A stretch of 11,170 nt of DNA, from positions 1-11,170 of the forward strand of contig NW_021827051.1 in assembly GCF_006345805.1 (NCBI RefSeq). Direction: 5' to 3'. This DNA is from Octopus sinensis (Eukaryota). This document shows positions 54 through 10,597 of this stretch, in pieces; the first letter of the stretch is position 1, and each line of letters begins with the position of its first letter. The notes beneath the pieces were generated by a model. It searched no databases. It had not been told where the DNA came from and worked only from the letters and a program-made list of their open reading frames with translations. Both the position numbers and the translations under genes were made by a program.

Positions 54-363
54 GTGGAGGCGCAATGGCCCAGTGGTTAGGGCAGCGGACTCGCGGTCGG
101 ATGATCGCGGTTTCAATTCCCAGACCGGACGTTGTGTGTGTTTATTGAGCGAAAACACCTAAAAGATCTAAGAGCTTCCGGCAGGGGTGGTGGCGACCCC
201 TGTTGTACTCTTTCGCACCAACTTTCTCTCACTCTTTCTTCCTGTTTCTTGAGTAACGCTGCGATGGACTGGCGTCCCGTCAAGCTGGGGGAACACATAC
301 GCTATAGAAACCGGGCCCCCGAGCCTGGCTAGGCTTGAAAAGGGCGCATAAATAATAAAAAAA
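54..363 (+). mobile_element. tRNA-derived SINE, family A, full length
   Basis: Pol III A box TGGCCCAGTGG at 66-76 and B-box-like GGTTTCAATTCC at 109-120. The head and body are shared with 10237-10597. Contains gcgatggactggcgtcccgtc (Meta/V-domain-like, from recall) and an A-rich tail. Confidence 0.85.
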
Positions 364-2814: not shown

Positions 2815-3186
2815 TACTCTTTACTCTTTTACTTGTTTCAGGCATGTGACTATGTCCATGCTGCAGCACCGTTTTTAGTCGAGCAAATCGACTCCAGGAC
2901 TTATTCTTTGTAAGCCTAGTACTTATACCATCGGTCACTTTTGCCGAACTGCTAAGTTACGGGGACTTAAACACACCAGCATCGGTTGTCAAGCGATGTT
3001 GGGGGGACAAACATAGACACACACAAACACACACATATATATATACGACGGGCTTCTTTCAGTTTCCGTCTACCAAATCCACTCACAAGGCTTTGGTCGT
3101 CCCGAGGCTATAGTAGAAGACACTTGCCCAAGGTGTCACACAGTGGGACTGAACCCGGAACCATGTGGTTCATAAGCAAGCTACTT
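2815..3186 (-). mobile_element. Family-B SINE, body and 3' part; its head is displaced to 5594-5626 by an insertion
   Basis: Reverse complement of 3324-3711. Homology stops abruptly at aagcaagctactt (3186) and resumes at 5594 with agctacttaccacgcagtcactcctacgcctat. Confidence 0.92.
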
Positions 3187-3323
3187 TATGCCATAAAATT
3201 TGCCTTTACGGCATTACAAAAAGTAGCTTGCGGGCTGGACAGAAACATTAATGAAAAAAAACGTCCGCCGATTTTTCGCTTCTCTAATACATTATTCTTT
3301 TTTTAAAAAATAAAATGAGGTAT

Positions 3324-3711
3324 AGGCGCAGGAGTGGCTGTGTGGTAAGTAGCTTGCTAACCAACCACATGGTTCCGGGTTCAGTCCCACTGCGTGGCAT
3401 CTTGGGCAAGTGTCTTCTGCTATAGCTCCGGGCCGACCAATGCCTTGTGAGTGGATTTGGTAGACGGAAACTGAAAGAAACCTGTCGTATATATGTATAT
3501 ATATAAGTTTGTGTGTCTGTGTTTGTCCCCCTAGCATTGCTTGACAACCGATGCTGGTGTGTTTACGTCTTCGTCACCTGGCGGTTCGGCAAATGAGACC
3601 GATAGAATAAGTACTGAGCTTACAAAGAATAAGTCCCGGGGTCGATTTGATCGACTAAAGGCGGTGCTCCAGCATGGCCGCAGTCAAATGACTGAAACAA
3701 GTAAAAGAGTA
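3324..3711 (+). mobile_element. Family-B SINE, near intact, nested in the 3' UTR of the ORF1-only element
   Basis: A box TGGCTGTGTGG at 3335-3345, B box GGTTCAGTCCC at 3378-3388, internal microsatellite, tail stem-loop cagtc-aaat-gactg followed by aaacaagtaaaagag. Confidence 0.93.
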
Positions 3712-3753: not shown

Positions 3754-4990
3754 TTAAAAAAGAACGCACAACAATGAGGCAATAAACCTTTTAGCCGGAC
3801 TGAGACACCAAGTCTCTTCAATCATCCCTATCAATTTTCTTGCCGCCTTAAGGCAATCTCTCAGCCGAAAGTCGGGGCACCAAAAGATATAATTGTAATC
3901 TTCCTTCGAACAGGACTCCACTATTCAAAGGAACTCTCTTTCTTTTACCACTAGCGCCGCCACCTGCGACGGCCAATGCTGCTGATCAGTACAGGCCGAG
4001 ATCATTAGGTCCTGACCATCAAGATAGCTCTCAACAGAGTTGTCAACAACCTCTCCCCTAAGATAGAATACCACATATTCTTTACTTTCACTGGGAGGGG
4101 CCACAGCTCCCTCTGTTGGTGACACGATTCAAACCGAAGAGGCCTCAGAACATTCCGACAGTACACTGCATACCTCCGGCACTGTTCCATTCTTTTTTAT
4201 CTTTGGTGCGGGAGAGGTTGGCTCCTTCGCCATAACGGCAGGAACCTCGCTTCCTCCCGCAACCCCGGGATCCCTCGGAGAGCAACCATTGTTTCTCCCC
4301 TTATTCCTTTTTCTTCCCTTTTTTCGAGCGAGGTCACACTCTCCTCCCATCTCTCCTTCCGGAGGAGGGTAGGGGTTCTTCCACAACTAACTGCTCCAGG
4401 AGCCTGATCTGGTCCTTGGGACAGTTCTTCTTAATGTGGCCGGGCTCCAGGCACTGATGACACTGGGTGAGGGCGTCCTTCAAGAATCACTGGATACCTG
4501 GACCCGGCCATCCTCAAAAAATCTGGGAACACCAGATCATCGGTTGATTGGGTCCACAGGGTCAAAACTGCCTTTGACCCCACCCAATTAGCCGCAGGCA
4601 TCATTTAACATTCAAGACCTTGGCTCCGCTGTCATCCAGACCCCGGCGGATAGTATCATCTATCCACTTGGGCTTTATTCCGGATGGCAGCTCACACATC
4701 CAAGCTCTCGTCAATTTCCTCCCATGAAATGTGGGCAGAAACAGAATTTCCTCCCCTTCCAGAGACTGGCTTGCGTTTTTGCGAGTCTGCCCCTCAGGAG
4801 TAACAAATAGCAGCCACACTGCTGCATATTTGACACCCCTTGTAATAAACTTGATGGTTGGCAGGTATTCTGCCAACTCCTTCTCAATATCTACTTGAAA
4901 GAACACAGTGATGGTGTCGAAGGTTTTGGAATATGTCCTCAACACCACCGTTCTCTCATTAAGGTCCTTTACCCACTGATTGGGGGGCAT
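3754..4990 (-). pseudogene. Disrupted ORF1p/Gag-like nucleic-acid-binding protein (~410 codons) with a CCHC zinc knuckle
   Basis: ATG at 4990 opens MPPNQWVKDLNERTVVLRTYSK...FITRGVKY...LPTFHGRKLTR. After frameshifts it reads VILEGRP, then CHQCLEPGHIKKNC (CX2CX4HX4C, 4462-4421), then the basic patch ARKKGRKRNKG. The C-terminal frame continues through an internal TGA (3925-3927) to TAA at 3754-3756. Confidence 0.8.
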
Positions 4991-5593
4991 AATTTCCCAC
5001 TCCAAGACAGTGTTTTTATTTTTTGCTATGCTTTGCAAAAAAAAAAAAAACGCAGGAAAATGTTCAACAAAAAAGTTCGAAATATTCAAATAAAAGTCCG
5101 AAGAAACACAACGAAAGAACAGAAAAACAGAGTAGAGAAAAGGACGAAGGAAGACATTTCCAGCAGGGCAACAGAATTCCGCCACTTAGATCCGCAAATA
5201 ATCCACAGGTAATCCTCCAGAATATTGCTTCACACAGCTACTCCAGTTCAATGTAGTAGCAAAAAAAAAATTCCTTCACGAATGGGTCGAATTTTTATAA
5301 ACTTTTCAAAGTTTGGTAGCGAGACACGCCAACCAAAACAAAACAATTATCATCGCTAAGTGAGTTACCGAGCGCGACTGCAGCAGACAAACGTTCGAGA
5401 CCCAGTGGGGATTTCTTATATGAAAAAAGGAAAAACAATGTCATACAAGAAATTCCCCACTAAGTCCTTAAAAAAAAAGTGCGTACCTTGCAATCACGCC
5501 TCTTCAACAGTTCTTCGATTCAAAACGGCCATCAACGCACGTCTTGACTGTTCAATCCGATAAGCAACTAACAAACACGCATGCGCGTAAGTG

Positions 5594-8594: not shown

Positions 8595-9140
8595 CATGGT
8601 GGCTGACCCCTCGTTATCGAGTATGGCCATTGCACGAAGTTTAATCAATGTTGTTATCGTGCAATGCCTATACAAGACTTTTTTTTAAAGTAAGAAAGAC
8701 TGTGCACTGAATCAATCTCACTCACTAAGCAACAGCAGTCATAATCCGAAAAGAAGAACAAGTCAACATCATCGGTAACCACTGAGCTGTAGGTTTTATG
8801 TCGGAGTTATTCCAGTTACCTGAGTTAGCATCTCCTAGAAGGATGCCCTAACAAAGGCTAGGAGTCCTTCACTCCCAATGATCGAGTATTAACCGCGCGA
8901 TCGAGTATTCAGCCCGATTATTTCTATATCCCCACGCATGATACAGCCTTAAGAGTTCCTCCGACTCTCAAGAGTTCCTCCGCCCTTTGATGGGTTTTGT
9001 TTTTCATCCTGCAGGGTGTCCAATAAACACCTCCTCACCAAGCAAGCTAGGTGGGGTTACCGGTTTAGTCGCCGACGACCCGACCATGCAACAGGTTGTA
9101 CTGGGTTACATGTTACCAGTAGCACTCGAAAGTGACCTAA
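8594..9140 (-). mobile_element. Non-coding RTE-like non-autonomous retroposon, ~550 bp
   Basis: An island of higher GC content with (CATA)n on both sides. On the minus strand it runs into (TATG)n. Its 5' part (ggcgactaaac, ggtgaggagg, aaaaacaaaacc) recalls RTE-clade 5' UTRs from memory. There is a 10-bp hairpin near the 3' end and no A/B boxes or credible ORF. Confidence 0.6.
9060..9117 (-). ncRNA. Candidate degenerate HDV-like ribozyme
   Basis: Elements occur in HDV order on the minus strand: ccagt(P2) aca(P3) acctgt(L3) tgc(P3') atggtc(P1') gg(P1.1') gtcgtcggcga(P4) ctaa(J4/2) accgg(P2'). P1, P2 and P3 contain mismatches. Confidence 0.45.
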
Positions 9141-9243
9141 CATACATACATACATACATAGATATATACATACATACGTACATACATACATACATACATA
9201 CATACATACATACATACATACCATACATACATACATACATACA
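9141..9243. repeat. (CATA)n microsatellite
   Basis: Directly visible. Confidence 0.95.
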
Positions 9244-10236: not shown

Positions 10237-10597
10237 GGAGGCGCAATGGCCCAGTGGTTAGGGCAGCGGACTCGCGGTTTCGATTCCCAAACCTGGCGTT
10301 GTGAGTGTTTATTGAGCGAAAACACCTAAAAGCTCCACGAGGCTCCGGCAGGGGATGGTGGTGATCCCTGCTGTACTCTTTCACCACAACTTTCTCTCAC
10401 TCTCACTTCCTGTTTCTGTTGTACCTGTATTTAAAGGGACCGGCCTGTGTCACGCTGAATATCCCCGAGAACTACGTTAAGAGTGCACGTGTCTGTGGAG
10501 TGCTCAGCCACTTACACGTTAATTTCACGAGCAGGCTGTTCCGTTGATTGGGATCAACCGGAACCCTCATCGTCGTAACCGACGGAGTGCTTCCACA
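10237..10597 (+). mobile_element. Family-A-headed SINE with a different 3' tail and a 15-bp TSD
   Basis: Head and body closely match 56-249. Perfect TSD TATTACTGCTTTTGT at 10222-10236 and 10598-10612. Confidence 0.92.

What the first reader, a model, noticed from the sequence alone, without database searches (positions are those of the whole stretch)
9060..9136. Candidate HDV-like self-cleaving ribozyme at the 5' end of a non-coding retroposon
Seen on the minus strand: cact-TTCG-agtg hairpin (9123-9134), then ggtaacatgtaac ccagt aca acctgt tgc atggtc gg gtcgtcggcga CTAA accgg. The order fits the nested double pseudoknot, with CC in L3 pairing to GG and a putative catalytic C at 9068. An alternative helix tactgg/ccagta could sequester P2. 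Known: HDV-like ribozymes define the 5' ends of R2, RTE and other non-LTR elements. Inference: this element may release its RNA from host transcripts without a Pol III promoter. This copy has mismatches in P1, P2 and P3 and may be inactive.
Basis: partly seen in the sequence, partly recalled or inferred. Interest (0 to 1): 0.7.

Follow-up and report, generated by a model that had tools for sequence, protein, structure and literature searches.

The report
Virus-type nuclease shield heading a retrotransposon
The front of this abundant jumping element does not fit the proposed self-cutting fold but matches, pair for pair, the RNA knot that flaviviruses use to stop RNA-degrading enzymes, so the element likely uses it to shield, and possibly to set, the start of its RNA; this is untested, and such knots were described only from viruses in the papers I read.

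Summary
The motifs exist and head a 545-nt non-coding element, an internally deleted RTE LINE. The HDV fold fails: 130 of 300 shuffles parse as well, and P3 pairs in 22% of cells across 34 relatives. The 'mismatches' are family-wide, not decay.

Instead, 9142-9085 maps one-to-one onto a flavivirus subclass-1a exoribonuclease-resistant RNA (xrRNA): three-way junction, junction C, U·A-U triple positions and both pseudoknots, with compensatory changes against viral copies. A model built only from genomic repeats hits all 6 flaviviral loci among 100 pre-selected viral loci. The module also heads other RTE families and RTE-like metagenome contigs, and sits in tandem in an unrelated repeat.

Likely role: blocking 5'-3' exonucleases, perhaps trimming host transcripts to the element's start. 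Against: Rfam's xrRNA models miss it, and no assay exists. The scan noted mini-RTEs with a 5'-3' stem before, on another genome; I found no note or paper on an xrRNA in a retrotransposon.

The parts
8595..9142 (-). Bipartite non-autonomous RTE element: about 500 nt of 5' UTR joined to the last about 55 nt of a full-length RTE LINE; lies between (TATG)n tracts
   Evidence: Matches full-length L117 at 800-1301 (84%) and 4937-4990 (91%); L117 ORF has endonuclease and RVT_1 domains
9085..9142 (-). Module I: predicted subclass-1a xrRNA fold (three-way junction with two pseudoknots)
   Evidence: (74.3 bits at 9145-9081)
9140..9142 (-). 5' strand that would thread the ring: U9142 pairs A9097, G9141 pairs C9098 (Pk1); U9140 would form the triple with A9120-U9100
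   Evidence: Register against viral xrRNAs; ZIKV U2-A45 pair described in PMC12397905
9135..9139 (-). P1 5' strand, pairs with 9096-9092; this copy has U at 9139 where the family has C (U·G instead of C-G)
9123..9134 (-).
9122..9122 (-). Unpaired junction C between P2 and P3, the subclass-1a discriminator
9099..9121 (-). P3 (9121-9116 with 9104-9099) and loop L3 holding the Pk2 5' strand (9112-9109)
9085..9096 (-). P1 3' strand (9096-9092), 3-nt spacer, Pk2 3' strand (9088-9085)
9060..9084 (-).
8960..9059 (-). Further conserved hairpins of the ~195-nt head, function unknown; this copy has lost about 20 nt at their 3' end and carries a short duplication there
8628..8666 (-). 10-bp stem (8666-8657 with 8637-8628) that joins 5' and 3' UTR in full-length elements; the deletion junction lies in its 19-nt loop
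8500..8594 (-). (TATG)n tail / target microsatellite

Best explanation
The first 58 bases of this RTE-derived element carry the helices and key residues of a flavivirus subclass-1a exoribonuclease-resistant RNA, and likely fold into that ring to stop 5'-3' exonucleases, which would shield the element's RNA and may also set its 5' end. Shown here: the element's identity, the conserved pairings and the one-to-one register with viral xrRNAs. Inferred: the ring, the triple and nuclease resistance. Most speculative: the element is transcribed from a host promoter upstream, Xrn1 or Xrn2 removes the host RNA and stalls at the knot, and the trimmed RNA is copied by the RTE protein supplied in trans, so neither a promoter nor a ribozyme is needed.
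For: (1) Features listed in PMC7527734, PMC5760640 and PMC12397905 (passages) are present: 5-bp P1, variable P2, 6-bp P3, junction C, U and A-U at the triple positions, Pk1 G-C plus the outer pair, L3-S4 pseudoknot after a 3-nt spacer.
(2) In a joint alignment of 5 genomic-repeat and 6 viral sequences, 96.7% of cells pair over 11 core pairs. Three pairs switch on both sides: P1 C-G/U-A, P3 C-G/U-A, Pk1 outer A-U/U-A/G-C.
(3) Model R1, built from 16 genomic repeat copies, hits all 6 flaviviral loci among 100 at E<=1.5e-3, against 1 of 92 other loci (two further RNA-virus-like loci also hit). Three hits are at second copies the pattern had not selected (Rfam labels).
(4) The class-1a descriptor matches the head and 0 of 20,000 shuffles.
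(5) Pk2 covaries: A-U 23 / C-G 8 at one pair, and a differently lettered 6-bp version pairs in 20 of 22 copies at its central pairs.
(6) The base before G1 pairs with the base after the Pk1 C in 112 of 144 copies and 10 of 13 lineages, p about 0.035.
(7) The module is portable: 1440 pattern hits, control 0; R1 hits 19 of 23 metagenome loci chosen on a different motif; tandem copies occur in an unrelated repeat.
(8) A lineage that captured 675 nt of upstream repeat has the triple broken in 13 of 14 loci.
Against: No assay of resistance exists, and the public runs offered were contigs, which cannot show RNA ends. Rfam's flavivirus xrRNA models do not hit the window or relatives. The descriptor and the pattern were written after I saw the resemblance, and the viral loci were pre-selected by that pattern, so E-values at pattern-matched places are inflated. 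Most P1 and P3 pairs never vary within the elements, and many rows were selected on those motifs.

The ring-sealing U (U51 in ZIKV) is C in most metagenome copies and G in the tandem family. Pk2 has only 4 Watson-Crick pairs in this family. Xrn1 halts 5-6 nt before P1, which predicts 3-4 inherited bases before G1; only 1-2 are lineage-conserved, and microsatellite targets blur the junction. In one metagenome lineage the outer Pk1 pair fails in 5 of 8 copies.

The extension lineage is a single event. 19 of 30 copies with the broken triple pair lack the extension, and most of them still start at the head. Nested folding of whole heads gives P1 a low probability, 0-0.31 (pseudoknots not modelled).
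Confidence: 0.68

Rival explanations
1. The fold is an xrRNA but only stabilises RNA; the 5' end is set by an internal Pol II promoter or another cut, not by trimming.
For: The inherited boundary lies 0-2 nt before G1, short of the Xrn1 halt distance. Copies with a broken triple pair mostly still start at the head. Bipartite LINEs are thought to be Pol II transcribed from 5' regions (PMC5786205 section 23). This rival overlaps with the best explanation on the fold.
Against: No promoter was tested. 32 of 46 classifiable copies chosen on a downstream motif reach the head's first helix, which both models predict.
Confidence: 0.35
2. Module I is a self-cleaving ribozyme of an undescribed class that only resembles an xrRNA.
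For: HDV-like and twister ribozymes occupy this position in other RTE-type elements (PMC5786205; PMC8501958 passages). The 5' boundary is sharp and tandem copies exist.
Against: The conserved residues are those of the subclass-1a xrRNA core. Tandem copies keep the sequence upstream of G1. No known catalytic motif is present, and Rfam gives no ribozyme hit.
Confidence: 0.1
3. One reading: an HDV-like ribozyme at 9136-9060, possibly decayed or switchable.
For: The elements are in HDV order, one older lineage has complete P1 and P2, and R2 ribozymes tolerate P1/P2 mismatches (PMC3774820 section 16).
Confidence: 0.04
4. The head is a protein-binding or translation-initiation structure of RTE RNA, and the likeness to xrRNA is coincidence or a relic with no nuclease role.
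For: The head has further conserved hairpins and a 13-nt A-rich loop, and it is swapped whole between RTE families.
Against: Tertiary-contact positions (junction C, triple, Pk1 outer pair) are kept or covary, which a relic would not need.
Confidence: 0.18

Closest known systems
Subclass-1a xrRNAs of mosquito-borne flaviviruses (MVE, ZIKV, WNV, DENV; Rfam RF01415, RF03539)
   Same: Same order and lengths of P1/P2/P3, junction C, triple positions, both Pk1 pairs and L3-S4 pseudoknot with a 3-nt spacer; 16 of 76 columns invariant across 5 genomic and 6 viral rows; tandem duplication also occurs.
   Different: Sits at the 5' end of a cellular retrotransposon rather than in a viral 3' UTR; U-A instead of C-G at the junction-facing pairs of P1 and P3; ring-sealing base variable; Rfam models do not score it; resistance not shown.
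Bipartite non-autonomous RTE LINEs (WALLSI3, RTESINE1/2, Bov-A; PMC5786205)
   Same: 5' UTR joined to the extreme 3' end of an RTE, no ORF, microsatellite tail.
   Different: Head is xrRNA-like rather than a predicted ribozyme; the junction lies inside a 5'-3' UTR stem.
HDV-like ribozymes of R2, RTE, Ingi/L1Tc (PMC3774820, PMC6765202) and twister variants of Perere-3 (PMC8501958)
   Same: A compact pseudoknot at the 5' end of a non-LTR element; the R2 ribozyme fold is said to protect against 5' exonucleases (PMC13708176 passage).
   Different: No conserved P2/P3/L3/catalytic C; no twister GC pseudoknot or GA motif; here protection would be the primary job, and trimming would replace cleavage.

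Membership tests
HDV-like ribozyme | P3 of 3 bp closing an L3 with C(s) that pair in P1.1 | tested here: not met
   P3 21.8% paired on 34 relatives
HDV-like ribozyme | P2 of at least 5 bp ending after J4/2 | tested here: not met
   Central pair unpaired in 23 of 34; its 5' strand is in P3 of the alternative
HDV-like ribozyme | Unpaired catalytic C in J4/2 | tested here: not met
   C9068 pairs G-C in 27 of 34; region absent in two families
HDV-like ribozyme | P1 starts at the element's 5' end and the register is conserved | tested here: not met
   No register in more than 3 of 12 lineages; descriptor written from recall, no positive control run
HDV-like ribozyme | Self-cleavage in Mg2+ | not testable with these tools
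   No assay; reads were contigs
Subclass-1a xrRNA | Three-way junction: P1 5 bp, P2 variable, P3 4-8 bp | tested here: met
   feature
Subclass-1a xrRNA | Unpaired C between P2 and P3 | tested here: met
Subclass-1a xrRNA | U·A-U base triple of the 5' U with a P3 pair | tested here: inconclusive
   All three bases in register in every lineage majority; the 3D contact cannot be seen
Subclass-1a xrRNA | Pk1: G-C pair plus outer pair with the 5' strand | tested here: met
   G-C 11 of 11, outer pair 9 of 11 in three types; outer pair 112 of 144 copies, 10 of 13 lineages
Subclass-1a xrRNA | Pk2 between L3 and the strand after P1 | tested here: met
   92.6% paired with two-sided changes; other letterings
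Subclass-1a xrRNA | Ring-sealing reverse Watson-Crick A-U pair | tested here: inconclusive
   U in the window's family (70 of 71), C in 26 of 30 metagenome matches, G in 10 of 13 tandem copies; the viral copies vary too
Subclass-1a xrRNA | Scores with Rfam flavivirus xrRNA models | tested here: not met
   No hit at E<=10, E<=5 or cut-off
Subclass-1a xrRNA | Blocks Xrn1, halting 5-6 nt before P1 | not testable with these tools
   Genomic junctions keep only 1-2 conserved bases before G1
Bipartite non-autonomous RTE | 5' and 3' ends of an autonomous RTE, no ORF | tested here: met
Bipartite non-autonomous RTE | Partner belongs to the RTE clade | tested here: inconclusive
   Single endonuclease+RT ORF of about 1030 aa with microsatellite tail; clade name from recalled motifs, no tree built
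Twister ribozyme | GC:GC pseudoknot and GA after P2' | tested here: not met
   Absent by eye against the layout in PMC8501958; no Rfam hit

The most novel reading that the evidence does not exclude
A group of animal LINEs uses a working flavivirus-type xrRNA, exchanged with RNA viruses, as its 5' end: host exonucleases trim read-through transcripts to the knot, a way to mature retrotransposon RNA without promoter or ribozyme, and a cellular xrRNA in over a thousand genomic copies.
Probability: 0.4. Interest if true: 0.92.

Novelty: new variant of a known kind. Interest (0 to 1): 0.8.

Why it matters
A 2021 review says xrRNAs had been characterised only in viruses and asks whether eukaryotic genomes hold them (PMC8374639, passages). 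This is a concrete candidate that one in vitro Xrn1 assay can test, and natural mutants are already in the genome. If it works, LINE 5' ends can be made or protected by nuclease stalling as well as by promoters or ribozymes. It would also raise the question of RNA-module exchange between RNA viruses and retrotransposons, and offer a natural 5' protector for RTE-based gene-writing templates (PMC13708176, passages).

Tried and rejected
HDV fold, short and with long L3/J1/2: rejected. Twister, pistol, hatchet and permuted hammerhead were considered by eye from recalled layouts, twister also: catalytic motifs missing. A second xrRNA or second P1 further downstream was not supported; a local hairpin covaries better, and R1 finds one hit in the window.

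Rfam scans gave only microsatellite or chance hits. RF01788 in the genome gave none. Viral and prokaryotic contig scans for the downstream motifs gave chance hits or none.

Sequencing runs were all contigs, so RNA ends and expression could not be read. Target-site duplication is not resolvable inside microsatellite. The ORF behind the tandem family was not identified.

Literature: no paper with HDV-like+ribozyme+octopus. xrRNA+retrotransposon gave 8 listings, reviews or prime editing; one search gave 23 listings, none on this by title or abstract start. The library lacks most subscription journals and four primary-paper ids were not held, so absence from print is not established. No supplements were read.

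Full report
OBSERVATION. It does so as well or better in 130 of 300 dinucleotide shuffles. Rfam gives no ribozyme hit. The head is abundant: 1128 exact hits of a 22-letter pattern with the P2-mismatched form, 185 with the alternative, controls 0. The 29 other best hits fetched share the window's letters apart from scattered changes, so the mismatches are not decay of this copy.

WHAT THE ELEMENT IS. The element spans 9142-8595 between (TATG)n tracts in a 2.72-Gb animal genome. Its first 500 nt match the 5' UTR, and its last 55 nt the 3' end, of full-length LINEs with one endonuclease+RT ORF of 1022-1030 aa. It is thus a bipartite non-autonomous LINE as described in PMC5786205 (passages and section 23). 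The label RTE rests on this anatomy and on recalled motifs; no tree was built. The deletion junction lies in the loop of a 10-bp stem that joins the two UTRs 3.65 kb apart in full-length copies, and a second family has its own 13-bp version. Earlier notes of the scan on another genome gave this lead.

RELATIVES. A metagenome scan on the downstream motif returned 23 loci, 22 homologous by eye and five of them duplicates; hosts are unknown. Pattern searches added older genomic families. Many of these rows were selected on that helix, so its invariance is partly built in; the metagenome rows were not. Of 17 lineage consensuses 12 could be segmented in full, and no HDV register is shared by more than 3 of them, even with L3 up to 60 nt.

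THE FOLD THAT FITS. The first 58 nt form P1, a variable P2, a lone C, a 6-bp P3, and a pseudoknot from L3 to the strand behind P1. I recognised the flavivirus xrRNA from recall and then checked it. PMC7527734, PMC5760640, PMC3968743 and PMC12397905 (passages; abstract) give the subclass-1a features: three-way junction, junction C, U·A-U triple, Pk1 with G-C, a U2-A45 pair in ZIKV, L3-S4 pseudoknot and a ring-sealing A-U. A pattern generalised from the element matched 120 viral-contig stretches (scan truncated). Six of these are flaviviral 3' UTRs by Rfam, with stem-loop IV over the cut-off at the matched bases in two. Aligned with 5 genomic copies, 6 viral sequences keep 16 columns invariant, and 96.7% of cells pair over 11 core pairs, three of them switching on both sides.

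Model R1, built from 16 genomic copies only, was run on 100 of the 120 loci. All 6 flaviviral loci hit at E<=1.5e-3, as did two other RNA-virus-like loci and 1 of the remaining 92. Three hits fall on second viral copies that the pattern had not selected. E-values are rough and are inflated at pattern-matched places. The class-1a descriptor, written after the fact, matches the window head and 0 of 20,000 shuffles.

Among 144 copies passing a motif filter, the junction base is C in 139, and the outer Pk1 pair forms in 112 copies and 10 of 13 lineage majorities (permutation p about 0.035; lineages are related). R1 finds the module in 19 of 23 metagenome loci, one of them a training sequence. A tandem repeat without RTE body keeps it with a re-lettered 6-bp Pk2, and another family keeps it with different downstream sequence.

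RESULTS AGAINST. Rfam's own xrRNA models do not score the element. The ring-sealing base varies. Pk2 has 4 Watson-Crick pairs in this family. Nested folding gives P1 low probability in whole heads. Junctions keep only 1-2 conserved bases before G1, not the 3-4 expected from the Xrn1 halt site. A lineage carrying 675 nt of captured upstream repeat has the triple broken in 13 of 14 loci, which fits loss of need after gaining another 5' end. But this is one event, and 19 of 30 triple-broken copies lack the extension, most starting at the head. Available runs were contigs and show no RNA ends.

MECHANISM. Shown: identity of the element, the pairings and the register with viral xrRNAs. Inferred from established xrRNA biology: a ring around the 5' strand that halts diverse 5'-3' exonucleases without proteins. 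Proposed: host read-through or intronic RNA is trimmed to the knot and then reverse-transcribed by the RTE protein in trans. I put the xrRNA-like fold at about 0.85, nuclease resistance at about 0.68, and end-setting by trimming at about 0.4. This copy has U·G in place of the first P1 pair and has lost about 20 nt downstream, so it may be weakened.

NOVELTY. It works like, and meets the testable structural criteria of, a subclass-1a xrRNA. I do not file it as a proven member, because resistance is untested and the Rfam test failed. PMC8374639 (passages) states that xrRNAs had been characterised only in viruses, apart from putative copies inside integrated viral sequence. Searches (listings only) and the scan's notes showed no retrotransposon case; the library is incomplete. 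PMC9115989 and PMC13282606 (passages), on repeats in the animal group that I guessed from recall, contain no mention of a ribozyme; I did not search them for xrRNA. Common ancestry with viral xrRNAs versus convergence is open. Verdict: the HDV reading is rejected and the finding is more unusual than proposed; new variant of a known kind, interest 0.8.

Noticed in passing
L302-L310, L312, L313, L321, L322, L330 (G000): An RTE copy inserted into another non-coding repeat. The chimera, with up to 675 nt of that repeat in front, spread to at least 14 loci; the 4 tails found among 6 fetched have different 3' flanks. 13 of 14 have a broken triple position.
   Followed up: partly
L365-L394: A repeat with module I in tandem copies 120-300 nt apart, near an unidentified ORF in several loci, without the RTE body.
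   Followed up: partly
L117/L118 versus L119-L136: Two LINE families only 65-71% identical in the endonuclease start share the about 183-nt head at 93-96%, suggesting the head is swapped as a unit.
   Followed up: partly
L117 1282/4944; L118 1270/4946; L119 1235/4894: Both families have a 9-13 bp stem between 5' UTR and 3' end with different inner letters; more complementary blocks exist.
   Followed up: yes
L468/L545 and L486/L546 (viral contigs): Class-1a-like folds in RNA-virus-like contigs without flavivirus Rfam hits. One follows an S-domain capsid gene; the other has two copies between ORFs. Both have the U-A P3 pair seen in the retroelement.
   Followed up: partly
L062, L067, L069, L077: A family that begins just after module I, at a second similar 5' motif.
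   Followed up: no
window 8960-9059 (-): Covarying hairpin with a 13-nt A-rich loop of constant length in 12 of 12 lineages that could be segmented.
   Followed up: partly
window 4129-5185 (-): Broken ORF1-like stretch with a zinc-knuckle-like motif near 4430-4470; no Pfam hit.
   Followed up: no
window 55-350, 998-1390, 1850-2160, 2820-3190, 3325-3710, 10238-10580: Several copies of two other short interspersed repeats.
   Followed up: no
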